A program made the translations under genes and the position numbers. From positions 8,475-72,474 of the IMG/VR virus record IMGVR_UViG_3300028588_000019: a stretch of DNA of 64,000 bases. One strand, given 5' to 3'. Origin of the DNA: a virus. Lineage: Duplodnaviria > Caudoviricetes. Shown here in pieces: positions 3,218-17,200 of this stretch; position 1 is the stretch's first letter, and every line of letters starts with the position of its first letter. A model generated the notes under the pieces. It worked only from the letters and a program-made list of their open reading frames with translations. It made no database searches and had not been told where the DNA came from.

Positions 3218-3612
3218 AATTTCACCAGATACTCGAAGGTCCATTCGGACGGGTTACCGAGCAAACCAGCCCGGCTTGGATGTGGGTCGAACACGATTTC
3301 GCCGTCTTTGCCGACAACGGAGTGGAACAAACCTGCACCGCGAGGCGACGGGCCACCGATCAGATGGTAGCCTTCCATGTCGACCGCATAGGTTGGATCG
3401 TGACCGTCGGTGCGGAAGATCATACCAAGGCTGCGTGCGTCCAGGAAATTGAACACAGCATCCCAAAACTCTTCATTCTTGGTGTCCAGCTTTGCAAGGA
3501 AGTGCGGCACGTCCGCAATCGGCAGGTCCAGAACCGAAGCGATGGTTGCACGCATGCAGTCACCGTTTTGCACGCCCGGGATGTTGACGAACTCTTGGTC
3601 TTGGGGTGTCAT
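3214..3612 (-). CDS. putative Cys-His (papain/C39-like) peptidase-fold protein
   Basis: GDCMRATIASVLDLP N-terminus; HSVV...FDPHP C-terminus. Confidence 0.45.
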   Translation of the reverse strand: MTPQDQEFVNIPGVQNGDCMRATIASVLDLPIADVPHFLAKLDTKNEEFWDAVFNFLDARSLGMIFRTDGHDPTYAVDMEGYHLIGGPSPRGAGLFHSVVGKDGEIVFDPHPSRAGLLGNPSEWTFEYLVKL

Positions 3613-5765: not shown

Positions 5766-6005
5766 ATGGCATACAACGCTAATATCGAGCAACTTGCAGT
5801 CGACATCAAAAGCTTGACCGATACCGACCTGCAATACCTCGTCAGCTTGCTCAGCAGCGACAGTGACATGGAGGACGACGTCCGCGAGTCAAGCTGCATG
5901 GGTGCAATGGCTTACGCATACCGTACCAGCCGTGCAGTCATCGCTCAGCGCGACTTCAACCTGCGCGAGCAGGCAGCGATGGATGACGCGAACTACAAAT
6001 GGTAG
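5766..6005 (+). CDS. small acidic early protein
   Basis: SD AGGGG then ATG 5766; D/E-rich. Confidence 0.8.
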   Translation: MAYNANIEQLAVDIKSLTDTDLQYLVSLLSSDSDMEDDVRESSCMGAMAYAYRTSRAVIAQRDFNLREQAAMDDANYKW

Positions 6006-6053
6006 AGTAATTTACTAGCTTGCCGTGGCAGGCTAGTGAGTGCACTCTGCACT
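6003..6053 (+). ncRNA. stop-anchored pseudoknot motif, copy R1
   Basis: AGAGT (6004-6008) pairs with loop ACTCT (6044-6048); 11-bp P1; P2 AGTGC/GCACT. Confidence 0.8.
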
Positions 6054-6076
6054 AAACCAACTAACAGGAGTAATTC

Positions 6077-6226
6077 ATGGCAAAGTATAAGATTTCTTAC
6101 ACCCTCAACGGTGCACCACGGAGCAAGGCTGTTTCAGCTGAAAGCGACGGAGAAGCTTGGGAGCTAGCTGAAGAAATAGCTGACCAGTTTGACGACTGTG
6201 AAATCATAAGCGTTGTCGAACAGTAA
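6077..6226 (+). CDS. 49-aa acidic early protein
   Basis: SD AGGAG; MAKYKISYTL...VVEQ, not in the ORF track because it is under 60 aa. Confidence 0.75.
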   Translation: MAKYKISYTLNGAPRSKAVSAESDGEAWELAEEIADQFDDCEIISVVEQ

Positions 6227-6278
6227 GAGTAATTTAGTAGCCTATTCACGAGTAGGTTACTGAGTGCGCTCTTGCACT
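6224..6278 (+). ncRNA. stop-anchored pseudoknot motif, copy R2
   Basis: AAGAGT/GCTCTT pseudoknot; P1 6236-6261; P2 AGTGC/GCACT. Confidence 0.8.
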
Positions 6279-6303
6279 AAAACAACAACATAGGGAGTAA
6301 CTC

Positions 6304-6501
6304 ATGAAAATGATTAAATTCGGTCTTATCCTCACCTTCACGCTTAACACCGTACTGCTTGGCGCTTTTGACCGCTGGGCTAAGTCCGGTGATGGTTTGG
6401 AGTGGTACGGTTTGCTGATGGAAGTTGCAGTGAGTCTTGCAATGTTGGCAAACTTGCTGTCCGCTTCCATGGTGGCAATTTTGCATGCGGAGGGCAAGTG
6501 A
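6304..6501 (+). CDS. small membrane protein
   Basis: SD GGGAG; two hydrophobic helices. Confidence 0.75.
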   Translation: MKMIKFGLILTFTLNTVLLGAFDRWAKSGDGLEWYGLLMEVAVSLAMLANLLSASMVAILHAEGK

Positions 6502-6584
6502 CCCTCTACATCACTCTGCTCGGGTACGTTGTACCTGCAATCGCAATCACGTACTTCGTCAAAACCATCATTAACGACCTGTGA
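6498..6584 (+). CDS. 28-aa membrane peptide
   Basis: GTG start overlaps the upstream stop (GTGA); hydrophobic; its stop anchors R3. Confidence 0.55.
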   Translation: MTLYITLLGYVVPAIAITYFVKTIINDL

Positions 6585-6636
6585 AAGTAATTTGTAAGCC
6601 TGGCGCGCTAGGCTTGCGAGTGCACTTTCCCGCACT
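6582..6636 (+). ncRNA. stop-anchored pseudoknot motif, copy R3
   Basis: GAAAGT/ACTTTC pseudoknot (covaried); P1 6594-6617; P2 AGTGC/GCACT. Confidence 0.8.
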
Positions 6637-6658
6637 ATCACAACATAAAGGTAATACT

Positions 6659-7009
6659 ATGAACACCATCACCACCCACGCAGCATACATCGCTCACCTC
6701 GTTTCTAACGGTCGTCACGCAGGCCTTGCCAAAGCAATGGTCACCGAGTTCTTCTGGTCAAGCATTAACGGACCAGAAAACGACCTGTTGTATTCGGGTA
6801 GCGACGAGGAAACGCCATGCAGCCTCGAGCCAGCGCAAGCACTTGCCGAATTCGATGCAATTGTTCATGATTACAACGCTGCTGTAACCGAGGATGGCAT
6901 CATGTTCGACGGTGAACTTATGTTCGACCTCGACGGTGAGTATGCCACAAGCGGCTCAGGCAACGCATCGATCGTTCGTGGCTACGAGAACGGCGGTAAC
7001 TTCAACTAA
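6659..7009 (+). CDS. acidic early protein
   Basis: SD AAGG then ATG 6659; D/E-rich. Confidence 0.8.
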   Translation: MNTITTHAAYIAHLVSNGRHAGLAKAMVTEFFWSSINGPENDLLYSGSDEETPCSLEPAQALAEFDAIVHDYNAAVTEDGIMFDGELMFDLDGEYATSGSGNASIVRGYENGGNFN

Positions 7010-7059
7010 GAGCAATTTACTACCTCAGCGTGCTGGGGTAGTGAGTGCGCTCTTGCACT
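7007..7059 (+). ncRNA. stop-anchored pseudoknot motif, copy R4
   Basis: AAGAGC/GCTCTT perfect 6 bp; P1 7019-7042; P2 AGTGC/GCACT. Confidence 0.8.
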
Positions 7060-7079
7060 ATCACAACATAAGGATTCAC

Positions 7080-7208
7080 ATGTACACAATTATCGCCTTG
7101 ATTGAAGTTTGCCATGAAGTAGTCTTCACCCGCGACGGGTTGTACCTCGTCACCACCATCGTGGACCACTTCAACAAGCGCACCATCCAAATTGCAGAGG
7201 AGATCTAA
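7080..7208 (+). CDS. 42-aa early protein
   Basis: SD AAGGA then ATG 7080. Confidence 0.65.
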   Translation: MYTIIALIEVCHEVVFTRDGLYLVTTIVDHFNKRTIQIAEEI

Positions 7209-7210
7209 TC

Positions 7211-7429
7211 ATGCGTCATCCAATCGACTTTCAAGCTTCGCATGCTCAGATTAAAGAAGACCCTGAGTACGCAATCGAAGTGCTTGTTCACTATGTGCCG
7301 TTCAACCTGCACATGATGATTAACGAATTCATGGACGAGTTCGTACAAAAGCATTCATTCCAGGTGTACACGGCCAGCCCACTCGTTGGTCAGTTCTTCA
7401 TGTGGTTGAAGGACACCCACAAAGATTAA
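7211..7429 (+). CDS. small early protein
   Basis: SD GAGGAG; its stop anchors R5. Confidence 0.75.
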   Translation: MRHPIDFQASHAQIKEDPEYAIEVLVHYVPFNLHMMINEFMDEFVQKHSFQVYTASPLVGQFFMWLKDTHKD

Positions 7430-7478
7430 AGCTCTAGCTAAGTGGTCTTCACGGGCCACTTGACGAGCGCTTTGCTCG
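7427..7478 (+). ncRNA. stop-anchored pseudoknot motif, copy R5
   Basis: AAAGC/GCTTT; P1 7439-7462; P2 covaried to CGAGC/GCTCG. Confidence 0.75.
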
Positions 7479-7495
7479 CTAACAAAGGAACTAAA

Positions 7496-7786
7496 ATGAC
7501 TAAGATTGAATTAACGCAGTTCAAACAGACCAACCTGCGCGATGTTCTTGAACGTGCACAGGAACTCTTGGTGAGTCTTGCAACCATCTGCAACGACAAC
7601 AAGAGCCGAATCCAAATCGCTGAAAAGATGCTGAAGCAAGTTGACCCAGGCGATGACTGGGAGCGGGTTGCTTGGTCGCTGGTCAACATCGAGTTGGTTG
7701 AGCGGATTATTCGTGAAGAGGACGCAAGCCTTCTGAAGTATCCTGAAGACTGGGATGGCGGCATCAACGTTGGGACGAAGGAGTAA
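7496..7786 (+). CDS. small early protein
   Basis: SD AAGGA then ATG 7496. Confidence 0.75.
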   Translation: MTKIELTQFKQTNLRDVLERAQELLVSLATICNDNKSRIQIAEKMLKQVDPGDDWERVAWSLVNIELVERIIREEDASLLKYPEDWDGGINVGTKE

Positions 7787-7789
7787 TTC

Positions 7790-7978
7790 ATGATTAAGCT
7801 GATCCCGCTCCCAAAGACGCCGAAGGTTCGCGTCAACCTGCACCTCGAGGAAGGTGTGGTCGCCCACTTCAAGCATGTCGCTGAGCTTGAAGAACGCCCA
7901 TACCAGCCACTCATTAACAAGGTGCTTCGCGAGTATATCGAGTCGCTGCCGCCTGAGCAACGTTATCACAATCGCTGA
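7790..7978 (+). CDS. BrnA-antitoxin-like ribbon-helix-helix protein (orphan)
   Basis: KVRVNLHLEEGVVAHFK...PYQPLINKVLREY matches the BrnA/CopG RHH pattern. Confidence 0.6.
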   Translation: MIKLIPLPKTPKVRVNLHLEEGVVAHFKHVAELEERPYQPLINKVLREYIESLPPEQRYHNR

Positions 7979-7987
7979 GGTGCTGAT

Positions 7988-8083
7988 GTGTTTTGGGACT
8001 ACGTTCTAGCAGTCATTGCACTGTGTTTGATCCCACCCGCCGTCGTATTCCTGATTCTTTGGTGGTTTGGCGACGACTTTTAA
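7988..8083 (+). CDS. 31-aa membrane peptide
   Basis: SD GAGGTG, GTG start, hydrophobic. Confidence 0.5.
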   Translation: MFWDYVLAVIALCLIPPAVVFLILWWFGDDF

Positions 8084-8096
8084 TTAGGAGAGCGAA

Positions 8097-8315
8097 ATGA
8101 GTAAACCCCTCACGATTGAACAAGAAATCCACGCTCGCATCAAACGGACCGAGCTTTTCGCAGCAATGAGGTCTTCAGGTAATTACGAAGACGATCTTGC
8201 AATTATCGACATCATTCTCGAAATGCGCGAGCGTGCCCGCAACGGGGGTGACCCCGAAGAACTCTTATACGAAGAGGGCTTTGAACCCGACTACGTATTT
8301 GACCTTATTGACTAA
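8097..8315 (+). CDS. small acidic early protein
   Basis: SD AGGAG; acidic C-terminus. Confidence 0.75.
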   Translation: MSKPLTIEQEIHARIKRTELFAAMRSSGNYEDDLAIIDIILEMRERARNGGDPEELLYEEGFEPDYVFDLID

Positions 8316-8371
8316 AGCTCTAGCTCATGACCACACTACCACGGTGCGGTCATGGTCGAGCGCTTTGCTCG
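8313..8371 (+). ncRNA. stop-anchored pseudoknot motif, copy R6
   Basis: AAAGC/GCTTT; P1 TCATGACC/GGTCATGG; P2 CGAGC/GCTCG. Confidence 0.75.
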
Positions 8372-8389
8372 TAATAGAAAGGACATTGT

Positions 8390-8554
8390 ATGCTGCAATA
8401 CAGAAAGGCGCTGATTGATTTCAGCCACGAGTACTTCCATCAGTACATCGATGAATTCCTTGCGGGATACAGCATCCCAGCAGGTATGACCTATCCTCAA
8501 CTTGTCCACCAGTTCGCTGAGTGGTGCGAGTCTTGCGGCTTTTGGGAGGTTTAA
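8390..8554 (+). CDS. 54-aa early protein
   Basis: SD AAGGA; MLQYRKALID...GFWEV. Confidence 0.65.
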   Translation: MLQYRKALIDFSHEYFHQYIDEFLAGYSIPAGMTYPQLVHQFAEWCESCGFWEV

Positions 8555-8556
8555 CC

Positions 8557-8763
8557 ATGAAGTTCGAATTCAAAAGCTCGAACGGCCAACTCATGATGAG
8601 TATTGAGTCCCCGAACACTAAGTTCGCCAAGCTGGTCAAGCAAATGTTCATTAACGAAATGAAAGACATTCACGGACCAGGCTTCAACATGTCCGTCTCC
8701 ACTCCTATCGAGGGTGGGACGTTCGAGCAATACAGCCACGGTATCGAGTGCCGGGTATCATAA
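8557..8763 (+). CDS. small early protein
   Basis: SD GGAGG then ATG 8557. Confidence 0.75.
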   Translation: MKFEFKSSNGQLMMSIESPNTKFAKLVKQMFINEMKDIHGPGFNMSVSTPIEGGTFEQYSHGIECRVS

Positions 8764-8805
8764 AGTAATCTCCTAGCTCGTTCTGCGGGCTAGTGGATGC
8801 ACTTT
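8761..8805 (+). ncRNA. stop-anchored pseudoknot motif, copy R7 (truncated)
   Basis: AAAGT/ACTTT and P1 CTAGCTCG/CGGGCTAG are present; the 3' strand of P2 is missing. Confidence 0.6.
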
Positions 8806-8835
8806 AAATATGTGTATGCACTTTTGCTTTTGCCA

Positions 8836-8844
8836 TGGTATAAT
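8836..8844 (+). promoter_or_regulatory. extended -10 promoter for the HNH gene
   Basis: TGG-TATAAT upstream of 8880. Confidence 0.55.
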
Positions 8845-8879
8845 AACCGTGTTGTTCAATTTCACGACAAGGATAAACC

Positions 8880-9347
8880 ATGAGCAAGCGTCACGACATA
8901 AGCGGTCAAAAGTTTAATCAACTCACTGTAACGAGTTTCTCGCACACAAGCCCAACAAGGCGTGCGATGTGGAATTGTGTCTGTGATTGTGGAGGCACAA
9001 CAGTTGTGTCACTGCAAAACCTGCGCAATGAAAAGGTCAAAACTTGCGGGTGCATATTCACGTACCTCTGCCAAGATGAGATCTATGGTGTTTGGAGGGG
9101 TATGATTCAACGCTGTACCAATCCAAACTCTGAAGGTTGGAAGCATTATGGTGGTCGAGGGATTACTGTCTGCGAACGATGGAAGTTGTTTAAGAACTTT
9201 CATGAAGATATGAGCCCGCGCCCTAGTCCCGAGTACCAGTTGGACCGCAAGAACAATGACGAAGGGTACTCAAAAGACAATTGTCATTGGATTACAGGCC
9301 TTGAGAACATTCAAAAGGCACACGCAATTAAACGAAGTAAATCTTAA
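8880..9347 (+). CDS. HNH-type homing endonuclease
   Basis: WNCVCDCG, WRGMIQRC, YGGRGITVCERW, LDRKNNDEGYSKDNC(H)W motifs. Confidence 0.85.
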   Translation: MSKRHDISGQKFNQLTVTSFSHTSPTRRAMWNCVCDCGGTTVVSLQNLRNEKVKTCGCIFTYLCQDEIYGVWRGMIQRCTNPNSEGWKHYGGRGITVCERWKLFKNFHEDMSPRPSPEYQLDRKNNDEGYSKDNCHWITGLENIQKAHAIKRSKS

Positions 9348-9947: not shown

Positions 9948-10724
9948 ATGGCACAAGCTCAAACCTCCGCAGCTCCTGGCAAAACCAAAGCTGCGCCACG
10001 CGCATCCCGCGCAAAGAAACCGCAAGCTGAGCAAGTCGTGCAGACGACTGGCAATGCAACGGGCCCTGGCGGCAAGAACATGCCAGAAGTCACCGCGCAG
10101 AACCAGAACCCGCCTGAAATCACGCAAGAGCAGCGTCAAGGTGAACGTCGTCAGCAACAGCAGAGCGCAATCGCGCGCTTTGCCAACCAGTCGATGGACA
10201 CCCCGGCAGCTCACAACGTGCCTGAAGTCACGGACGAACAGCGTAAGCTGATCGCCTTCCAGGAGCAGATGCGCATCACCGCTGAGCAGTTCGGTGTGCA
10301 GCTTCCGCCAAACCTCGAAGACGTGCTCAACGGCAAGGTTGAACAGCCGCAAGCTCAAGGCGCGCAGGGTGCACAACGTGCTCCGCGCAACGCTGACAGC
10401 CAGAACGGTGTCACGCGCCCTGCCAAGGGTACGAAGACCGGTCAGGTGTGGGACGCAGCCGACGCAATCTCGACCAGCAAGAACGGCCAACCGGCCACGA
10501 TTGCTGAAGTCAAAGAGAAGTTGGCTGGTAGCGTCAACGACGCCACGACCCGCACGCAGTATTCGCGGTGGCGTAACTACCACGGCATCAAAGGCCGGCT
10601 CGATGCTCAACCTCAGCAGCAACAAGCTGCCAGTCCTGAAGGACGTGACGAGGGTATCGAGAAAGCCTTCGGTCGTCGCAAGGACGATGTCGACCGTCGC
10701 CAAGCTGAACCAGCTGCACAGTAA
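9948..10724 (+). CDS. Q/A-rich putative DNA-binding protein with the shared C-terminal domain
   Basis: SQNGVTRPAKGTKTGQVWDAAD...NDATTRTQYSRWR; SD AAGGAG. Confidence 0.8.
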   Translation: MAQAQTSAAPGKTKAAPRASRAKKPQAEQVVQTTGNATGPGGKNMPEVTAQNQNPPEITQEQRQGERRQQQQSAIARFANQSMDTPAAHNVPEVTDEQRKLIAFQEQMRITAEQFGVQLPPNLEDVLNGKVEQPQAQGAQGAQRAPRNADSQNGVTRPAKGTKTGQVWDAADAISTSKNGQPATIAEVKEKLAGSVNDATTRTQYSRWRNYHGIKGRLDAQPQQQQAASPEGRDEGIEKAFGRRKDDVDRRQAEPAAQ

Positions 10725-10733
10725 TACAATTTC

Positions 10734-10762
10734 AACCCCGCCCTGAACCAGCGGGGTTTTTT
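10734..10762 (+). terminator. intrinsic terminator
   Basis: AACCCCGC/GCGGGGTT stem followed by a T-run. Confidence 0.8.
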
Positions 10763-10787
10763 ATTGGCAAAACTTTAGGAGTTAATC

Positions 10788-10961
10788 ATGATGAGTGGTG
10801 AAAAGCTTTACGCACTCTACGAAGAGGGGAACTCCACGTTGAACAATTGTATCGTCGACACTTGGGAGCAGTTATCAACTGACGACAAAGCTGTTTGGGA
10901 GCGCATGGCAGAAGATATCAACGACCATACGCAACGTGCCATTACCGACGTATTCACCTAA
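10788..10961 (+). CDS. 57-aa acidic protein
   Basis: SD AGGAG; its stop TAA abuts hammerhead 1. Confidence 0.7.
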   Translation: MMSGEKLYALYEEGNSTLNNCIVDTWEQLSTDDKAVWERMAEDINDHTQRAITDVFT

Positions 10962-11010
10962 CCACACTGACGAGACCTCAATGGTCGAAACCGCTTCGGC
11001 GGTCTGTGGT
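10961..11010 (+). ncRNA. hammerhead ribozyme, type I (HH1)
   Basis: ACCACA-CUGACGA-GACC(UCAAU)GGUC-GAAA-CCGC(UUCG)GCGG-UC-UGUGGU; predicted cut after C11004. Confidence 0.93.
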
Positions 11011-11040
11011 ATGTGCCACGAGTAACAGAAAGGAAGTAAG

Positions 11041-11322
11041 ATGGCAAAGATGTTTATGACAATCAAAACGGTCTATCATATTCGAGGTAAGTCTCCGAAA
11101 GTTAACCGTTCATACAACGCAAACAGAGCAGTCATGCAATGCGTCGCTCACATGCAAATCAACCACTACGGAGCACACGTTGCTGAAGTGTACGATGATG
11201 GCACAGGTGAACTGCATGCACAGGTCAAGCGCAAAGCAGACGGTTCGTTGCACATTCACTTCCAACGTGACCCGCAGAACTTCGAAACCAAGTACGCCAT
11301 GTCCCATCTTTTAGGCCTTTAA
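11041..11322 (+). CDS. hypothetical protein
   Basis: SD AAGGA; directly downstream of HH1. Confidence 0.8.
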   Translation: MAKMFMTIKTVYHIRGKSPKVNRSYNANRAVMQCVAHMQINHYGAHVAEVYDDGTGELHAQVKRKADGSLHIHFQRDPQNFETKYAMSHLLGL

Positions 11323-11332
11323 GGAGTTAGCC

Positions 11333-11572
11333 ATGAATAGTCAGATCCCGAGCAACTATACCTGCATGATTGACGAGTACCAGCGCAAGCTGATGCACGA
11401 CGTGTTCCAGGCTGTGCTCCTGCGCGACGATATGCGTGCACACTTAACCACACTAGAAGGATCCTTCGCGGACAACGCTCTGGAGGAACTGGAGATACTG
11501 CGTGACATGCTTAAGGATCTTCCCGAGCAAGAACAAAAGAGCCCAGGCGTAACTCACGGGCTGTGCCTGTAG
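11333..11572 (+). CDS. hypothetical protein
   Basis: SD AAGGAG. Confidence 0.75.
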   Translation: MNSQIPSNYTCMIDEYQRKLMHDVFQAVLLRDDMRAHLTTLEGSFADNALEELEILRDMLKDLPEQEQKSPGVTHGLCL

Positions 11573-11580
11573 TAATCACG

Positions 11581-11607
11581 AAGGGCTGAGTAGAGCCCTT
11601 TTATTTT
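11581..11607 (+). terminator. intrinsic terminator
   Basis: AAGGGCT/AGCCCTT stem followed by TTATTTT. Confidence 0.6.
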
Positions 11608-11622
11608 AATGAGGAGGTAATC

Positions 11623-11796
11623 GTGAATAGTCTTGATCGGAGAATCGTACGTAGTCGTAATAAGCGAGAGGGTTGCTACTACGACCGACCTATTTGGTGG
11701 AAATACAAAAATGGTCCAAACCGTAAGAAACGGAACGAGTTAAAGCTGGTGCAACGCGGGAAGAAGTTTAGTACCACTCGGACCAAGAAAGTTTAA
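11623..11796 (+). CDS. 57-aa very basic protein
   Basis: SD GAGGAGG, GTG start; K/R-rich; its stop abuts HH2. Confidence 0.65.
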   Translation: MNSLDRRIVRSRNKREGCYYDRPIWWKYKNGPNRKKRNELKLVQRGKKFSTTRTKKV

Positions 11797-11857
11797 CCAC
11801 ACTGACGAGCGCTAGTGCGCGAAACCGTGGCACGGAATATTGTGCGCGGTCTGTGGT
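11796..11857 (+). ncRNA. hammerhead ribozyme, type I (HH2)
   Basis: ACCACA-CUGACGA-GCGC(UAGU)GCGC-GAAA-CCGU...GCGG-UC-UGUGGU; predicted cut after C11851. Confidence 0.92.
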
Positions 11858-12176
11858 AGAAGTGAACAGTTTGCTGTTATTTGGGTTAGTATATGACAAA
11901 TAATGGGTGCTTACCCTATGTAAACGTACTATAAATTAAGTAAAAAAGAAGATTATATATAGTATAGGTAGGAACACCCACCCTCCCGGGATGGTTTCGC
12001 AGCCCCAACACCACCCACAAATAACGCTAAAGCATAACTTGCTCGTTATTATGGCAATTAACTGTATATACTACCCTACCCCCGGCTGTTGTTTATTGCG
12101 TTAGCCCTGTTTCAGCACTATACAGGGGAGGGGTAGGGTGTTATATTAGTGGTTTCCCCACCACGCAAGGATCACC

Positions 12177-12842
12177 ATGCCCCCGATTCAACTACTTAAC
12201 CATGTCAATCTTGAAACAGCTTACCTGCTGCCTGATTTCCCATACAGCTTCGGGACCAAAACGAAAGCTCGCTATTGGATTGAAACCCGCCAAGCATACG
12301 GGCAGCGGCTGTACACACAGTTCTGCGCACCTCGTTCGGAAAGCTGGTACAAGCCGAAGCCAAGCCTGTACAGCGACATCATTGTGATGACGGTGGACAC
12401 CAATGGCTATGACGCTGGCTTAGTTGTCCCGCACTTTATCGACGTGCAATCATTAAACGCAGAGCAGCTCAAGCAGTTTGCGGAATATTTCGTCCTAACC
12501 CCTTTCCAAAAGGATCGTGTGATGAAGGGTCTTGCCCGGAACAATGTCCACTATGCCCCAAAGTGGCGCAACAGTGAGGGGCTTAACCTGCGCTTGCATA
12601 TGATGGCTGAAACTAAACCAACTGCGTTGGAGCAAGTCACTAGAGGGGTAAACAGTGTGGGTATCACAACACAGTCTGCGGAGGATGCGCTCAAGGAACA
12701 ACGTCGCCGCGAACGGGAAGCTAAGACCATTATCAACACGCCCACCCCGGTCGCAAGGATGCCTAATGCAGACGCTGACGATACGACGGGCATGACCCCA
12801 GAGCAAATCGCTGTTTACAACGACCTGATGGGGAAGAGCTGA
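12177..12842 (+). CDS. hypothetical protein
   Basis: long ORF with SD AAGGA; RYWIET...W.KPK motif. Confidence 0.8.
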   Translation: MPPIQLLNHVNLETAYLLPDFPYSFGTKTKARYWIETRQAYGQRLYTQFCAPRSESWYKPKPSLYSDIIVMTVDTNGYDAGLVVPHFIDVQSLNAEQLKQFAEYFVLTPFQKDRVMKGLARNNVHYAPKWRNSEGLNLRLHMMAETKPTALEQVTRGVNSVGITTQSAEDALKEQRRREREAKTIINTPTPVARMPNADADDTTGMTPEQIAVYNDLMGKS

Positions 12843-13258
12843 TGACCTTCGACTTTATGAGCCTACCGCGCTCCGTCCAATCGGACGTCAAACCAATTGC
12901 TGAGCTCCAAGTGTACCATGTGGATGCACAGCTGGACGATGACCACACTTGGCCGGTTCTGTACCGCGCTCACTCACGCGTGGAATTCGCAGACTACTAC
13001 GTCAGCGCTTCAGTCTGGTTTGCAGCTTACCGCATCCTGGACTACACGCCGTGTGGCGTTTGGATTTCGCAAGGTGTGCAGAAGCGCAAGTTCGTCAATC
13101 TCAAAGCTGTTAAGCAATGGGCTTACCTTACTAAGGAAGAAGCCCTGCACAGCCTGAACCGGCGTAAGCAAATGCACGTTCGCCATCTTACACACGAACT
13201 TGCAGCGGCCGAGGCCCTTGCAGACTACGTTCAGCGCACGATGGAGCATAACAAATGA
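12842..13258 (+). CDS. hypothetical protein
   Basis: overlaps the upstream stop (TGATG). Confidence 0.75.
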   Translation: MTFDFMSLPRSVQSDVKPIAELQVYHVDAQLDDDHTWPVLYRAHSRVEFADYYVSASVWFAAYRILDYTPCGVWISQGVQKRKFVNLKAVKQWAYLTKEEALHSLNRRKQMHVRHLTHELAAAEALADYVQRTMEHNK

Positions 13259-13366
13259 CACAGCAATACGATAAGCCCGTCACCCGGCATTTGTCGGTAA
13301 CGGGTATTTCGAAGAAGATGTATTCAACCAGATGTACGAAGATTTAGCTCCCGAGAAAGGAAGATA

Positions 13367-13642
13367 ATGGACTATAAATACCTCACATTCAAAACCGAGC
13401 GTTCTAGGATCCGCATAGCTAGGATTCTGAAGCTACTGGAAACTCCCATGACCCGCGACAAGCTGGAGGAATGTGGTTATATGAGCAAGACAACAGCGAT
13501 TTACTGTCTACGTCATTTGCGAGAATGTACGCCGCCGAAAATCTTCATCAGTGGCTACGAAGAACGTTTTCAAAACAGGCCTGCGCCGGTCTATTCATTA
13601 GGTGCGGGTCCGGACGTTCAACCGCCACGGAAGGTTGCATGA
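13367..13642 (+). CDS. winged-HTH protein, paralog of 506-928
   Basis: IFISGY...PVYSLGAGPDV. Confidence 0.65.
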   Translation: MDYKYLTFKTERSRIRIARILKLLETPMTRDKLEECGYMSKTTAIYCLRHLRECTPPKIFISGYEERFQNRPAPVYSLGAGPDVQPPRKVA

Positions 13643-13731
13643 ACAAATGGCGCTGCCGCTATTGCGGTGTATGGAACCGACCAACCGCTGTCATTTGCTG
13701 GTGCAGGAGGAAAATTAATGAGCGAACCTAA
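13639..13731 (+). CDS. 30-aa Zn-finger-like peptide
   Basis: WRCRYCGVWN...ICWC; ATGA overlap. Confidence 0.5.
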   Translation: MNKWRCRYCGVWNRPTAVICWCRRKINERT

Positions 13732-13942
13732 AGCGTACGACTACGTGATTGCCGCTGCTAAACTGGCTGCTCGCGATATGAAGCGTCTGAAAGCAAAGCC
13801 GCACATTGTCCAGATTCGTGATTTGGGTGGTACAGTTTTTTATGCGGTTTATAGGAACCGAAATGCTGTTCGTTTGATAGGTTACGTCAACAGCTTGGAC
13901 CAGCTAACGCAAAATTGGGCCTACATAACGCGGATGCCCTAA
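13718..13942 (+). CDS. hypothetical protein
   Basis: SD AGGAGG then ATG 13718. Confidence 0.7.
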   Translation: MSEPKAYDYVIAAAKLAARDMKRLKAKPHIVQIRDLGGTVFYAVYRNRNAVRLIGYVNSLDQLTQNWAYITRMP

Positions 13943-13970
13943 TAGCTGGAAATAAATTAAATTTCAGCCA

Positions 13971-14000
13971 ATGCACTGTGGTATAATACTTACAGTGCAT
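13971..14000 (+). promoter_or_regulatory. extended -10 promoter inside an inverted repeat
   Basis: ATGCACTGT-G-GTATAAT-ACTT-ACAGTGCAT. Confidence 0.65.
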
Positions 14001-14033
14001 TTACGGAAGTTTATCAAAATACTAGAGGGTTAC

Positions 14034-14219
14034 ATGTTCAACAGTCCAGAACGACTCAAGCGTCTCGATGAGACTTGCATGCTCTGCGCCCAAAGGTTCG
14101 GAGATCATAGCGTCCACAACGAGTGCCCTACGATGAAGGAACGTAAGATCGTTCGGCACCATTTTGAAACCACCTTGTTCCGCGGAACGGGTCATTACAG
14201 GGAGCGACTGAAAGAATGA
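14034..14219 (+). CDS. small Cys/His protein
   Basis: CxxC...H...C; SD GAGG. Confidence 0.6.
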   Translation: MFNSPERLKRLDETCMLCAQRFGDHSVHNECPTMKERKIVRHHFETTLFRGTGHYRERLKE

Positions 14220-14542
14220 CGTACAAGACAGTAATCTGTGAAAACTTAGACTGCCGAAAGCAGTTTAAAGCACGCCTTGCGGACATTGCGCGGGGCTGGG
14301 GTCGTTTCTGCTGCAAAAGCTGTAAAGCTGCTGTACAGTCCCGTAACGGGGGTAAGCTACCAGCACTGCCCAAGCGGGGTAAACGCGCAGCACAACCCCG
14401 TAGGTTGCAACCAAAGGACCGTCCGCGCTACGCTACAACGCAACCTAAGCGCCCCGTAAACCATTGGGAAGTTGAGCATCAGCGGGCAAAAGACAATTTT
14501 GATGAGTACGATCGTATTTGCGCTGAGGAGGACCAGCAATGA
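14216..14542 (+). CDS. Zn-finger protein
   Basis: CENLDCRKQF...GRFCCKSC. Confidence 0.7.
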   Translation: MTYKTVICENLDCRKQFKARLADIARGWGRFCCKSCKAAVQSRNGGKLPALPKRGKRAAQPRRLQPKDRPRYATTQPKRPVNHWEVEHQRAKDNFDEYDRICAEEDQQ

Positions 14543-14712
14543 AGCCTTCCGGTGCACTTATCTTCGTCCGTACGACAAAGACCTACAACGTTGAAATGCC
14601 CTTGTACAGGCTGTACACCAAGTCTGGTTCAGCTGCTGGCGTTTACGCAAGTCACAGCGACGCTGCACGCTTCGCAGCTAAAAGCAATCTCGTGCATGTA
14701 GGTCCACAATGA
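14539..14712 (+). CDS. 57-aa hypothetical protein
   Basis: SD GAGGAGG, ATGA overlap. Confidence 0.55.
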   Translation: MKPSGALIFVRTTKTYNVEMPLYRLYTKSGSAAGVYASHSDAARFAAKSNLVHVGPQ

Positions 14713-14834
14713 ACCGTATCTGCAAAGTTTGCGGTCAACCCAAGGGCCTACCCATTCACACCGCTTGCAGTAGACAACTCAAAGCGGTCAAACGCTTAGC
14801 AGCTATTGCTAAGAAACAATCAGGTCTTAAATAG
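14709..14834 (+). CDS. 41-aa CxxC peptide
   Basis: CKVCG...H..C; ATGA overlap. Confidence 0.5.
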   Translation: MNRICKVCGQPKGLPIHTACSRQLKAVKRLAAIAKKQSGLK

Positions 14835-14842
14835 GAGGTATA

Positions 14843-15034
14843 ATGAAGTACAAAGCATTTTACAAATGTCGCTGGTGTCAGGGGGTTTTTAGCTATAGTG
14901 TGCCTGAAAACCACCGTAACAATCCGGTCGGTCTCACCATGCAACATTCGATGGTGACAACGCATAAGTGCGACGACATCCGAACAGGAATCGCTGACCT
15001 CATAGGCGTTAAGACGGAGAACTTAAATGATTAA
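14843..15034 (+). CDS. Zn-ribbon protein
   Basis: YKCRWC...HKC; SD GGAGG. Confidence 0.65.
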   Translation: MKYKAFYKCRWCQGVFSYSVPENHRNNPVGLTMQHSMVTTHKCDDIRTGIADLIGVKTENLND

Positions 15035-15314
15035 CGCAACCAACTTCAAAACCCTCGACCTCAAGAAAGTAATTGAGCGCGCCAACGAAATCCTGTGCTG
15101 TCTGCCACTGCTTGATCCGCATGTGGCCTACGGTCTTGAGATTGCTGAAGGTCGTTTGACCGGGCAAGACATTGTATCTCGTCACGAACCGCTGGACCTG
15201 TGGGAGAAGCTGGCGTGGCAAATGGTTTACGCAGAGCTTCGAGAGCAATGCATTCGTGACGGTGACCCGAGCGTTGAAAAGCGCCCAGTCAATTGGAATG
15301 GTGGTTTGACCTAA
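15027..15314 (+). CDS. hypothetical protein
   Basis: SD GGAG; its stop anchors R8. Confidence 0.7.
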   Translation: MINATNFKTLDLKKVIERANEILCCLPLLDPHVAYGLEIAEGRLTGQDIVSRHEPLDLWEKLAWQMVYAELREQCIRDGDPSVEKRPVNWNGGLT

Positions 15315-15363
15315 GTACCAGCCACAGCGTCGTGACAGGGCGCTGTAACGGGTGCTTTACCCG
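15312..15363 (+). ncRNA. stop-anchored pseudoknot motif, copy R8
   Basis: AAGT/GCTT; P1 ACAGCGTC/GGCGCTGT; P2 covaried to CGGGT/ACCCG with loop GCTTT. Confidence 0.7.
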
Positions 15364-15381
15364 ACAACAGAGGAGAATGAG

Positions 15382-15585
15382 ATGGTAAACGTTTTAATCA
15401 CCACGACGATGATGGATGTTTTTGACGGTGTAAGCTGTTCGGTCCACACCGTCGTGGTCCCTTGCAATTCGATGGAGGAGGCGCGCAGGGTTGCAGAGAA
15501 GGTCAATGACGCGCAGAACACACGAGGTGAATTGAAATTGGGTGGTGCCGCAAAATACCTCCAAACTGCAATGGTGCTCGCATGA
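15382..15585 (+). CDS. hypothetical protein
   Basis: SD GAGGAG. Confidence 0.65.
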   Translation: MVNVLITTTMMDVFDGVSCSVHTVVVPCNSMEEARRVAEKVNDAQNTRGELKLGGAAKYLQTAMVLA

Positions 15586-15785
15586 ACATCGACCAACTTC
15601 GCGCCTGGCACATGGCTCGTGCTGCAACATACCGCCAGTCGGCGGACAACACTGCCAAGTTACCCCACGCAAACGAACCACGCCAGCGCAGTGTAATCAA
15701 ACGCGCCCACGAGAACGCTAACTTTCACGTTAAATGTGTGGCGGCAATCGACGAGGTTCTTGAAGAACTGGAACCTGTGGCATGA
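15582..15785 (+). CDS. hypothetical protein
   Basis: ATGA overlap. Confidence 0.65.
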   Translation: MNIDQLRAWHMARAATYRQSADNTAKLPHANEPRQRSVIKRAHENANFHVKCVAAIDEVLEELEPVA

Positions 15786-16051
15786 ACCGCCGTTTTGAAA
15801 CCATCGAAGCAGCTGTCTTACACATGCAGGCCGCTTATGCAAAGTTGAGTCCAAGTGTGGTCACCTGGCACGTGCTTGAGCCCGAAGATAAACCTCAAGC
15901 ACTATTGTTCATCTCTCAGCATTTCGTAAAGCTTGCAGATTGTGAAGAGATCTACACCGCATGGGTGACTTATGCCTTCGCACTCGGGGACATGGAGGTT
16001 GTATTCGAGCAAACACCCTACCACACCGGATCCCCGGATCGACCCCACTAG
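15782..16051 (+). CDS. hypothetical protein
   Basis: ATGA overlap. Confidence 0.65.
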   Translation: MNRRFETIEAAVLHMQAAYAKLSPSVVTWHVLEPEDKPQALLFISQHFVKLADCEEIYTAWVTYAFALGDMEVVFEQTPYHTGSPDRPH

Positions 16052-16058
16052 ACGCCTT

Positions 16059-16094
16059 AACGGGTGTATAATGGGGGTTGCAGTACACCCCGTT
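16059..16094 (+). promoter_or_regulatory. TATAAT promoter inside an inverted repeat, GA/TC-free
   Basis: AACGGGTG-TATAAT...TACACCCCGTT. Confidence 0.55.
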
Positions 16095-16118
16095 ACCTTA
16101 ACAATTTAGGAGTAGTAA

Positions 16119-16325
16119 ATGGATATGCGAGTGCGCGAAAAGACGGACACCGATCGCCAAAACGACATCAACCGTCTTTCGCACCAAGAAATGGCGGAAA
16201 TCATGCATTTCACGCCGAATAACCACACTTACCGCACTGGCCCATACCGCGCCATGTTCGACGCACGATTCAAGCGGCTGGGTGGTATGACCAAAGAACT
16301 GAAAAAAGAACTTGCAGCCTACTGA
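16119..16325 (+). CDS. hypothetical protein
   Basis: SD AGGAG; its stop TGA is part of the HH3 core CUGAUGA. Confidence 0.75.
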   Translation: MDMRVREKTDTDRQNDINRLSHQEMAEIMHFTPNNHTYRTGPYRAMFDARFKRLGGMTKELKKELAAY

Positions 16326-16366
16326 TGAGCTCGTAAGAGCGAAACCGCCGAGAGGCGGTCTAGGCT
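16316..16366 (+). ncRNA. hammerhead ribozyme, type I (HH3)
   Basis: AGCCUA-CUGAUGA-GCUC(GUAA)GAGC-GAAA-CCGCC(GAGA)GGCGG-UC-UAGGCU; predicted cut after C16360. Confidence 0.95.
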
Positions 16367-16398
16367 TAATAACAAGTCTAACTAAACCGGAGGTTATT

Positions 16399-16668
16399 AT
16401 GTTTGGAGGAGCCAATAAGTCGGACAACATGCGCCTGGAAATGGCAATTGCTGCGGCTTTAAAGAAAGAAGCACAGGAAAAGATTGCAGCAGGTATTGAA
16501 CCTGAAGTCCCACGTGAGAAGATCATTTGGAGTGCAACCTTTCCGGCATTACCGAAAATGAAGCCAATCCAGAGCGACGATCCTGTTCTGTTCAAACAGA
16601 CCATTGATAAACTGCGTGCGCAACTTCCTGGAACGACGATTAACATCTACGAAATCCGCGGGCTGTAA
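16399..16668 (+). CDS. hypothetical protein
   Basis: SD GGAGG then ATG 16399. Confidence 0.75.
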   Translation: MFGGANKSDNMRLEMAIAAALKKEAQEKIAAGIEPEVPREKIIWSATFPALPKMKPIQSDDPVLFKQTIDKLRAQLPGTTINIYEIRGL

Positions 16669-16669
16669 T

Positions 16670-17200
16670 ATGTCAAAAGTTATTGCAAGAGAGGTGCAGC
16701 AACGCCTCCATAAATTTGAACGTTGGTTGAAGTCACGTGGTGCCGAAATTCTTATAAACACCAACCAATACGAGTTAATCCGTTTTCGCGGAACCAAAGG
16801 TACGTCCATTGTTTACCGCAAGGACAACCTTGATGCGGCTGCAAGCTTTTTCAACGAAGCTGAAGATGCTTGGTGCAACTATTTGGTGAACGGTCCGTGG
16901 CGTGCTATTTTGCCCACACCAAGGCAAGCCGGTCACCGCAATGGCGTCGAAATGCGCACCATCCGCGCACGCGACGGTAACGATTGCTTCTTTTGCTGTG
17001 AATACGTTACTGAGCACTCTGCAACAATCGAGCATCTTGTTGCTCTTGGTCAGGGTGGACCGCAGCACATCAGCAACAAGTTCCTAGCCCACGGCGAGTG
17101 CAACATGCGCGCAGGTAACATTAGCGCACCGGAAAAGATTAAGATACACACTGACGCGCTTTTGCGCAAGAACGGAAGGAAGGTTTATGAACCAAGCTGA
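16670..17200 (+). CDS. HNH endonuclease with an extra N-terminal domain
   Basis: RDG..CFFC...TIEHLV...GG...N...H..CN...GN. Confidence 0.8.
   Translation: MSKVIAREVQQRLHKFERWLKSRGAEILINTNQYELIRFRGTKGTSIVYRKDNLDAAASFFNEAEDAWCNYLVNGPWRAILPTPRQAGHRNGVEMRTIRARDGNDCFFCCEYVTEHSATIEHLVALGQGGPQHISNKFLAHGECNMRAGNISAPEKIKIHTDALLRKNGRKVYEPS

What the first reader, a model, noticed from the sequence alone, without database searches (positions are those of the whole stretch)
10961..16366. Three intact type I hammerhead ribozymes fused to stop codons
Seen in sequence: complete cores (CUGANGA...GAAA...GUC) with all three stems at 10961-11010, 11796-11857 and 16316-16366. HH1 and HH2 share TAACCACACTGACGAG and GGTCTGTGGTA but differ in stems II and III, which suggests local duplication. 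Their stem I starts on the last A of the upstream TAA. In HH3 the upstream gene's stop is the UGA of the catalytic CUGAUGA. Established: hammerheads are known in some phage genomes, with unclear roles. Inference: they cut the polycistronic early RNA 35-55 nt after the stops (after C11004, C11851, C16360). Together with R1-R8 this gives an 11-site segmentation scheme, and ribosomes terminating inside HH3 could gate its folding.
Basis: partly seen in the sequence, partly recalled or inferred. Interest (0 to 1): 0.8.

Follow-up and report, generated by a model that had tools for sequence, protein, structure and literature searches.

The report
Three hammerhead ribozymes between phage genes
Three genuine self-cutting hammerhead RNAs sit between small early genes of an uncultivated 72-kb phage, probably cutting long transcripts into separate messages; this is a known feature of phages, and starting at the upstream stop codon is the norm for such ribozymes.

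Summary
Observation confirmed. HH1 (10961-11010), HH2 (11796-11857) and HH3 (16316-16366) are complete type I hammerheads on the + strand, with cleavage after C11004, C11851 and C16360. A structural descriptor finds only these three in the 72,474-bp genome, against about 0.017 expected per shuffled genome. Orthologues in related uncultivated phages keep the core invariant while all three stems covary: 10 of 15 pairs change on both sides (0/500 shuffles).

A ribozyme pair (HH-A, HH-B) flanking a block built around a conserved 93-aa gene recurs in four lineages. This is the arrangement Perreault et al. 2011 described for prophages, so it is a new member of a known kind.

Stop-codon fusion is real but not special: 65 of 94 type I hammerheads sampled from IMG/VR abut or overlap an upstream stop.

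- Local duplication: not supported.
- An 11-site scheme with R1-R8: no evidence.
- Ribosome gating: untested.

Two extras:
- HH1 and HH3 are each followed by a near-copy of their stem I 5' strand, which would fold the cut product's 5' end into a hairpin.
- The HH1/HH2 5' junction is a copy of TRACCACAC, the genome's most over-represented word (33 copies, unexplained).

The parts
10788..10961 (+). 57-aa gene upstream of HH1. Its TAA stop (10959-10961) ends on the first base of stem I.
   Evidence: ORF with an AGGAG ribosome-binding site. No Pfam or PHROG match.
10961..11010 (+). HH1, a type I hammerhead. Predicted cleavage is after C11004.
   Evidence: Descriptor hit with 6/4/5 bp stems. Rfam RF00163 gives 26.6 bits, E 0.0049, below gathering. 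MFE equals the hammerhead fold. Own model R1 gives 69 bits. Orthologues in L009, L027, L029, L037 and L038 covary.
11005..11020 (+). Predicted hairpin at the very 5' end of the HH1 3' product (UGUGGU-AUGU-GCCACG). The downstream arm is a near-copy of the stem I 5' strand.
   Evidence: Folds of the product. The AUGUGCCAC word is kept in L009, L027 and L038, and with a 2-nt insertion in L037, while the rest of the spacer diverges. It is absent in L029.
11041..11322 (+). 93-aa gene downstream of HH1. The predicted 5' UTR after cleavage is 36 nt.
   Evidence: 20 homologues in metagenomes. These were used to find the orthologous ribozymes.
11333..11572 (+). 79-aa gene inside the HH1-HH2 block.
   Evidence: ORF with an AGGAG site. 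No family match.
11580..11601 (+). Intrinsic-terminator-like hairpin with a U tract, inside the HH1-HH2 block.
   Evidence: Consensus scan.
11623..11796 (+). 57-aa very basic gene. Its TAA stop (11794-11796) ends on the first base of HH2 stem I.
   Evidence: ORF with a GAGGAGG site.
11796..11857 (+). HH2, a type I hammerhead with a long bulged stem III. Predicted cleavage is after C11851. It is followed by a 319-nt intergenic region (11858-12176).
   Evidence: Descriptor hit. Model R1, not trained on it, gives 49.6 bits, E 1e-12. HH-B equivalents in L027, L029, L038 and L039 sit in the same place, before a long intergenic gap.
16119..16325 (+). 68-aa gene upstream of HH3. Its stop, UGA 16323-16325, is the UGA of the catalytic CUGAUGA.
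16316..16366 (+). HH3, a type I hammerhead with GNRA loops on stems II and III. Predicted cleavage is after C16360.
   Evidence: Descriptor hit with 6/4/6 bp stems. Rfam HH9 model gives 25.8 bits, E 0.006, below gathering. MFE equals the hammerhead fold, z -3.2.
16361..16380 (+). Predicted 7-bp hairpin at the very 5' end of the HH3 3' product (UAGGCUU-AAUAAC-AAGUCUA).
16399..16668 (+). 89-aa gene downstream of HH3. The predicted 5' UTR after cleavage is 38 nt.
   Evidence: GGAGG site. No homologue other than itself among 5.8 billion proteins.

Best explanation
HH1, HH2 and HH3 are functional type I hammerhead self-cleaving ribozymes, embedded in the spacers between small early-region genes of an uncultivated 72-kb tailed phage.

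Proposed mechanism (inferred):
1. As the + strand transcript is made, each ribozyme folds. It cuts itself after C11004, C11851 or C16360.
2. The upstream message ends 35-55 nt past its stop codon. That end is a GC-rich tetraloop hairpin (stem III), followed by two nucleotides and a 2',3'-cyclic phosphate.
3. The downstream message starts with a 5'-hydroxyl and a 36-38 nt leader that carries the ribosome-binding site.
4. For HH1 and HH3, the freed 3' strand of stem I re-pairs with a near-copy of the stem I 5' strand a few bases downstream. This puts a hairpin at the new 5' end and should disfavour re-ligation.
5. HH1 and HH2 together bound a three-gene block built around a conserved 93-aa gene. 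HH2 severs that unit from the long promoter-bearing intergenic region that follows.

The net effect is to uncouple neighbouring cistrons, so that each can have its own stability and translation.

Shown here: the motifs, their conservation and covariation, and the layout.
Inferred: actual cleavage, the end protection and the physiological purpose.
For: - Perfect cores and three stems, found only at these three places in the genome and far above chance.
- Orthologous ribozymes in related phages, found through the neighbouring 93-aa gene. The core is invariant, 99.2% of cells are paired, and 10 of 15 pairs change on both sides. 0 of 500 shuffles reach these values, and slid controls give at most 1 such pair.
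- A model built without HH2 finds it at E 1e-12.
- The HH-A ... HH-B arrangement around the same gene block recurs in the window, L027/L028, L029/L030 and L038-L040. In L027 and L029, as in the window, HH-B is followed by a 320-400 nt intergenic gap; the L038-L040 contigs end before the next gene.
- The layout is the class norm. In 94 unrelated IMG/VR type I hammerheads the upstream stop abuts or overlaps the ribozyme in 65. The cut-to-start distance has a median of 34.5 nt.
- Literature: clustered hammerheads flanking single genes in prophages cleave in vitro and in vivo (PMC3088659). Processing of polycistronic transcripts is the proposed role (PMC6765202).
- The product hairpins are predicted by folding. 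The HH1 hairpin word is conserved in 5 of 6 orthologues while its surroundings diverge.
Against: - No cleavage or RNA-end data exist for this phage.
- Rfam scores are below gathering.
- The ribozymes are dispensable. One complete relative has a single copy and another has none. Several relatives keep the 93-aa gene without any ribozyme.
- A terminator-like hairpin lies inside the HH1-HH2 block, so the block may not be one transcript.
- The 5'-terminal hairpin is not a general property of phage type I hammerheads: 28% at the cut site against 23-27% at random positions. It is missing at HH2 and at the L029 orthologue.
- No clear stem I / loop II tertiary contact was identified for HH2 or HH3.
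Confidence: 0.7

Rival explanations
1. Translation-gated cleavage. The upstream stop codon lies on or inside the ribozyme, so a terminating ribosome unwinds stem I and the core. Cutting would then happen only when the upstream gene is poorly translated, which links message processing or decay to translation.
For: - In all three copies the stop is within the first 10 nt of the ribozyme.
- The same holds for 65 of 94 unrelated phage type I hammerheads, against 8.9% of random positions for a slightly wider stop window.
- The ribozyme is 5'-justified in its spacer: about 0 nt to the stop and about 30 nt to the next start.
Against: - Compaction alone predicts the same layout.
- The position of the stop varies widely, from 3 nt before stem I to inside loop II. 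That argues against a precise mechanism.
- The core UGA stops any ORF that enters in that frame.
- No data link translation to cleavage.
Confidence: 0.2
2. Cleavage followed by ligation. HH1 and HH2 have identical stem I arms. The excised 847-nt RNA (11005-11851) could therefore pair its 5' end with the HH2 5' arm and be ligated into a circle. Alternatively, the block could be spliced out.
For: - Stem I is identical, ACCACA/UGUGGU, in both ribozymes.
- Hammerheads catalyse the reverse reaction.
- Tandem hammerheads make circular RNAs in retrozymes (PMC4918200).
- Perreault et al. raised this idea (PMC3088659).
Against: - In L027 and L029 the two ribozymes of the pair have different stem I sequences. 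L029 is incompatible in either direction.
- Perreault et al. looked for such products and found none.
- A terminator-like hairpin lies inside the block.
- The predicted 5' hairpin of the HH1 product would compete with re-pairing.
Confidence: 0.05
3. The ribozymes ride on a DNA-level element. Their 5' junction is a copy of the dispersed word TRACCACAC. The hammerheads might be passengers of cassettes exchanged at that word, with no role of their own in expression.
For: - TRACCACAC is the most over-represented word in the genome: 33 copies, 26 on the + strand.
- The related word TRACCACACT gives 17 copies in the window against 0.26 expected, and 19, 9 and 4 copies in three complete genomes.
- A copy lies within 120 nt upstream of 9 of 11 ribozymes, against 4.4% of random positions.
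- An HNH endonuclease gene lies just downstream of the HH3 cassette.
Against: - Many of the 11 ribozymes are orthologues, so the association is not 11 independent events.
- Strong purifying selection on the core and compensatory changes in the stems show that the RNA fold itself is selected.
- The 3' arm word is not over-represented.
Confidence: 0.1
4. The motifs are chance look-alikes or dead relics.
For: - Rfam gathering scores are not reached.
- The ribozymes are absent from some relatives.
Against: - Chance expectation is about 0.017 per genome.
- All core positions are intact.
- Covariation across relatives is extensive.
- Rfam also misses five perfect hammerheads in L011, so the low scores reflect the models.
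Confidence: 0.03

Closest known systems
Clustered hammerhead ribozymes flanking single genes or short gene blocks in prophages (Perreault et al. 2011, PMC3088659)
   Same: - Several hammerheads in one orientation within a few kb of a phage genome.
- They sit in intergenic spacers and bound individual genes of varying identity.
- The proposed role is the same: cutting long phage transcripts into gene-length messages.
   Different: - This is a free, uncultivated 72-kb phage genome, not a prophage.
- All three copies are type I.
- No activity data exist here.
- Described here and not found by me in that paper: the stop-codon abutment, the fixed 6-bp stem I, and the product hairpin.
Type I hammerhead, Rfam RF00163 / clan CL00010
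   Same: The same 15 core nucleotides, the same three-helix junction with stem I open, and C17 at the cleavage site.
   Different: - Scores fall below the Rfam gathering threshold.
- Stem III is long and stable (5-6 bp or more with tetraloops). According to PMC13725137, eukaryotic type I copies usually have a short helix III, and phage copies resemble the long-helix-III kind.
RiboJ-type synthetic ribozyme insulators (own knowledge, not checked here)
   Same: A hammerhead cuts off the upstream context. It leaves a short leader that begins with a hairpin ahead of the ribosome-binding site.
   Different: - RiboJ is engineered and sits behind a promoter.
- Here the hairpin reuses the stem I 3' strand, and the element lies between two natural cistrons.
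RNase III processing sites between phage T7 early genes (own knowledge, not checked here)
   Same: Intercistronic cuts convert a polycistronic early transcript into separate messages with structured ends.
   Different: T7 uses a host protein enzyme and long imperfect hairpins. Here the RNA cuts itself and leaves 5'-OH and cyclic-phosphate ends.

Membership tests
Hammerhead ribozyme, type I | Conserved core C3-U4-G5-A6-N7-G8-A9 ... G12-A13-A14 | tested here: met
   CUGACGA, CUGACGA and CUGAUGA, each followed by GAA, with no core mismatch in any of the three.
Hammerhead ribozyme, type I | Three helices around the core, with stems II and III closed by loops and stem I open | tested here: met
   Stems of 6/4/5, 6/4/6 and 6/4/6 bp. 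The MFE and centroid folds are the hammerhead.
Hammerhead ribozyme, type I | A15.1-U16.1 pair, G10.1-C11.1 pair, and a non-G nucleotide (H17) at the cleavage site | tested here: met
   In all three copies stem III opens with A-U, stem II opens with G-C, and H17 is C.
Hammerhead ribozyme, type I | Helices supported by compensatory changes in homologues | tested here: met
   8 sequences: 99.2% of cells paired and 10 of 15 pairs with changes on both sides. 0 of 500 shuffles reach these values, and slid controls give at most 1 such pair.
Hammerhead ribozyme, type I | Score at or above the Rfam gathering threshold | tested here: not met
   HH1 26.6 against 34 bits, HH3 25.8 against 52, HH2 no hit. 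The same models miss five perfect hammerheads in L011, so this reflects the seed alignments, not the motifs.
Hammerhead ribozyme, type I | Tertiary contact between loop II and stem I, needed for fast cleavage at cellular Mg2+ | tested here: inconclusive
   - HH1 fits the class pattern of the IMG/VR sample, shown among the 60 copies with a 6-bp stem I, of which 54 have A before stem I and 51 have A after it; UNAAU-type loop II sequences are the commonest across the sample.
- HH3 instead has a GNRA loop II and a predicted distal extension of stem I with an internal loop.
- No contact could be verified.
Hammerhead ribozyme, type I | Site-specific self-cleavage giving 2',3'-cyclic phosphate and 5'-OH ends | not testable with these tools
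   Needs transcription and cleavage assays or end-specific RNA sequencing.
Clustered phage hammerheads (Perreault 2011) | Two or more hammerheads in the same orientation, flanking single genes or short blocks in a phage genome | tested here: met
   HH1 and HH2 bound three genes (847 nt between the cuts). HH3 lies 4.5 kb further on the same strand. The phage identity rests on primase, helicase, DNA polymerase and tail protein matches. The pair is conserved in relatives.

The most novel reading that the evidence does not exclude
HH1 and HH2 carry identical stem I arms. The 847-nt three-gene RNA they excise could therefore be re-ligated by the reconstituted hammerhead into a circular, exonuclease-resistant messenger. 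That would be a retrozyme-like circular RNA made by a dsDNA phage.
Probability: 0.05. Interest if true: 0.8.

Novelty: new member of a known kind. Interest (0 to 1): 0.35.

Why it matters
The biological role of bacterial and phage hammerheads is still called largely elusive (PMC6765202). This locus adds a clean, conserved test case:
- a ribozyme pair kept around the same gene block in several phage lineages;
- a quantified rule for how phage type I hammerheads sit in their spacers, flush with the upstream stop and leaving a leader of about 35 nt;
- a predicted strand-swap hairpin on the cleaved product.

Each of these can be tested with simple reporter constructs. None changes the current picture of what these elements are.

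Tried and rejected
- Rfam at gathering score over the whole window gave no hit. The permissive scan gave only sub-threshold hits for HH1 and HH3.
- DNA similarity to 50,697 phage records, in both near and distant modes, gave no match for 10500-17000.
- Searches for type II and III hammerheads, and for copies with one core mismatch, found none.
- The HH3 neighbour gene has no homologue, so no HH3 orthologue could be found through gene context.
- The idea that a 5'-terminal hairpin on the 3' product is general was rejected: 28% at the cut site against 23-27% at random positions in 94 hammerheads.
- A conserved extension of HH1 stem I was rejected. The upstream flank differs among orthologues while the downstream flank is constant.
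- A possible decayed HH-B in the relative L009 (about 3310-3400, minus strand) does not align convincingly, and model R1 does not see it.
- Circularisation as a conserved feature was rejected, because stem I differs within the pair in L027 and L029.
- Flanking proteins have no Pfam or PHROG function.


Full report
**1. Observation**

A descriptor was run on the whole 72,474-bp genome; the window is bases 8475-72474 of one contig. It requires CUGANGA, a stem II hairpin, GAA, a stem III hairpin opening with A-U, a non-G nucleotide at the cleavage site, and a stem I.

- The descriptor returns only HH1 (10961-11010), HH2 (11796-11857) and HH3 (16316-16366), all on the + strand, with stems of 6/4/5, 6/4/6 and 6/4/6 bp.
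- No type II or III hammerhead exists in the genome.
- 300 Markov shuffles give 0.017 loose hits per genome and no strict hit.
- Allowing one core mismatch adds nothing.
- Each core folds into the hammerhead as its minimum-free-energy and centroid structure.
- The cleavage sites follow C11004, C11851 and C16360, that is 43, 55 and 35 nt after the upstream stops.

Rfam does not call the motifs at gathering score. A permissive scan gives HH1 26.6 bits against RF00163 (threshold 34) and HH3 25.8 bits against the HH9 model (threshold 52). HH2 is missed. The same models also miss five perfect hammerheads in an IMG/VR contig (L011). The low scores therefore reflect the models.

**2. Context**

The genome is a tailed-phage genome with direct terminal repeats.

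- It carries a primase, a helicase, a family B DNA polymerase and a minor-tail-protein match.
- The polymerase is only about 45% identical to those of Seuratvirus, Nonagvirus and NP1-like phages.
- There is no DNA-level match among 50,697 phage records.
- The ribozymes lie in a run of small + strand genes upstream of the replication genes.
- All flanking ORFs have Shine-Dalgarno sites and none has a Pfam or PHROG function.

Local layout:
- HH1 fills most of the 79-nt spacer between a 57-aa gene and a 93-aa gene.
- HH3 fills the 73-nt spacer between a 68-aa gene and an 89-aa orphan gene. An HNH endonuclease gene follows that gene.
- HH2 follows a 57-aa basic gene and opens a 380-nt intergenic region (11797-12176, 319 nt beyond the ribozyme) that holds promoter-like sites.
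- A terminator-like hairpin (11580-11601) lies inside the HH1-HH2 block.

**3. Relatives**

The 93-aa gene has 20 homologues. Fetching their contigs and one IMG/VR relative gave two sets of orthologous ribozymes.

- HH-A sits next to the gene in L009, L027/L028, L029/L030, L037 and L038-L040.
- HH-B sits at the end of the two- or three-gene block in L027/L028, L029/L030 and L038-L040. In L027 and L029 a 320-400 nt intergenic gap follows, as in the window.

Across 11 sequences the core is invariant, stem I is always exactly 6 bp, and all three stems change by compensatory substitutions. On an 8-sequence alignment:
- 99.2% of cells are paired;
- 10 of 15 pairs change on both sides;
- no shuffle of 500 reaches the observed values;
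- slid controls give at most one such pair.

A covariance model built from those eight finds HH2 and the HH-B copies, which were not in the training set, at E 1e-7 to 1e-12. It finds nothing else in the window.

The elements are dispensable. One complete relative has one copy and another has none. Several relatives keep the gene without a ribozyme.

**4. Is the stop-codon fusion special?**

A pattern scan of IMG/VR, together with earlier loci, gave 94 distinct type I hammerheads. The stop codon of an ORF of at least 40 aa falls as follows:

| Position of the upstream stop | Copies (of 94) |
|---|---|
| Ends 0-3 nt before stem I | 30 |
| Overlaps the stem I 5' strand, as in HH1 and HH2 | 15 |
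| Is the core UGA, as in HH3 | 20 |

- With a slightly wider window, 70 of 94 hammerheads have such a stop, against 8.9% of random positions.
- The distance from the ribozyme end to the next Shine-Dalgarno-preceded start has a median of 29.5 nt. The cleaved leader therefore has a median of 34.5 nt. The window's leaders are 36 and 38 nt.
- The fusion is thus real, non-random and typical of the class.
- The paper that described phage hammerhead clusters does not mention stop codons.
- Whether the fusion means translational control or only tight packing cannot be told from sequence.

**5. Other regularities of the class**

- In the sample, stem I is 6 bp in 60 of 94 copies and never longer than 8 bp.
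- Among the 60 copies with a 6-bp stem I, stem I is flanked by A before it in 54 and by A after it in 51.
- Loop II is commonly UNAAU.
- HH1 fits this pattern (A before, A after, loop UCAAU).
- HH3 differs. It has a GNRA loop II and a predicted distal extension of stem I, ACUUG/CAAGU, across an internal loop.

**6. Product hairpin**

With longer 3' flanks the predicted fold switches. The stem I 3' strand pairs with a near-copy of the stem I 5' strand just downstream. The 3' cleavage product then starts with a hairpin at its first nucleotide.

- For HH1 the hairpin spans 11005-11020, and for HH3 it spans 16361-16380.
- The HH1 word AUGUGCCAC is kept in four orthologues, and with a 2-nt insertion in a fifth. 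Stems II and III and the rest of the spacer diverge over the same sequences.
- It is absent at HH2, which has no gene to protect, and at the L029 orthologue.
- It is not a general property of the class: 28% at the cut site against 23-27% at random positions.
- I read it as a lineage-specific device that releases the product and may shield its 5' end. This is inference.

**7. The shared HH1/HH2 junction**

The identical stem I arms do not point to a recent local duplication.

- The pair is old, and in L027 and L029 its two members differ in stem I.
- TRACCACACT occurs 17 times in the window against 0.26 expected.
- TRACCACAC is the most over-represented word in the genome at k = 7-10, with 33 copies, 26 of them on the + strand.
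- TRACCACACT is also enriched in two complete relatives, at 9 and 4 copies against 0 for the reversed control.
- The word occurs in different reading frames. Its + strand bias persists where genes run on the - strand. Six copies supply the stop codon of real genes.
- A copy lies within 120 nt upstream of 9 of 11 ribozymes, against 4.4% of random positions. Many of those ribozymes are orthologues, so these are not independent events.
- The 3' arm word is not enriched.
- I cannot explain this word. It looks more like a DNA-level signal than an RNA-level one.

**8. R1-R8**

The two-hairpin elements occupy the same slot, from the stop to about 25 nt before the next start. Their second-hairpin word recurs in the relatives. 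They match no Rfam family, and nothing shows that they are cut. The 11-site segmentation scheme is therefore conjecture.

**9. Verdict**

These are genuine hammerheads under selection. They are most likely intercistronic self-cleaving processors, as proposed for prophage clusters (PMC3088659, PMC6765202). This is a new member of a known kind, seen many times in this scan. The circular-RNA reading remains possible only for this genome and is unlikely.

Noticed in passing
Window + strand: 3871, 5740, 8328, 9437, 10959, 11445, 11794, 12940, 16220, 19014, 22845, 27097, 28625, 33650, 38597 and others. Window - strand: 15863, 24705, 49930, 51615.: TRACCACAC(T) is the most over-represented word in the genome.
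- There are 33 copies of the 9-mer, 26 on the + strand. The 10-mer occurs 17 times in the window against 0.26 expected.
- It is also enriched in two complete relatives.
- It lies in varied reading frames. It supplies the stop codon of six genes and forms the 5' junction of HH1 and HH2.
- Its + strand bias persists in regions where genes run on the - strand.
- Function unknown. Candidates are a Chi-like, nick or protein-binding site.
   Followed up: partly
Window 6003-8880 and 15315-15381. Also L009 7413-7430(-), L027 2181-2198, L029 3527-3544, L037 1621-1638, L038 1043-1061.: The two-hairpin intergenic elements (R1-R8) fill the same stop-to-ribosome-binding-site slot as the hammerheads. Their second-hairpin word, GAGTGC...GCACTA, is conserved in related phages. 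They match no Rfam family. The loop GCUCUU resembles a boxA word; that resemblance is from memory and was not tested.
   Followed up: partly
L011 3316-7843, L012 5674-10201: Unrelated IMG/VR contigs carry five perfect type I hammerheads within 4.5 kb. Rfam's permissive scan of L011 reports none of the five as a type I hammerhead (one weak type III match overlaps one copy), so the current type I model under-detects phage copies.
   Followed up: partly
94 IMG/VR type I hammerheads (loci L010-L026, L043-L160): Class-wide pattern:
- stem I capped at 6 bp (60 of 94);
- conserved A 5' of stem I and AA 3' of it;
- loop II often UNAAU;
- H17 is C in 91 of 94.
This suggests a shared tertiary contact at the end of stem I.
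   Followed up: partly
L009 about 3310-3400 (- strand): There is a possible decayed HH-B in the closest complete relative, with CCCACACUAUGGAG ... GGUCUGUGGU at the end of the gene block. The alignment is unconvincing.
   Followed up: partly
Window 16604-17200 (+): An HNH endonuclease gene lies directly after the orphan 89-aa gene that follows HH3. The ribozyme, orphan gene and endonuclease might form one inserted cassette.
   Followed up: no
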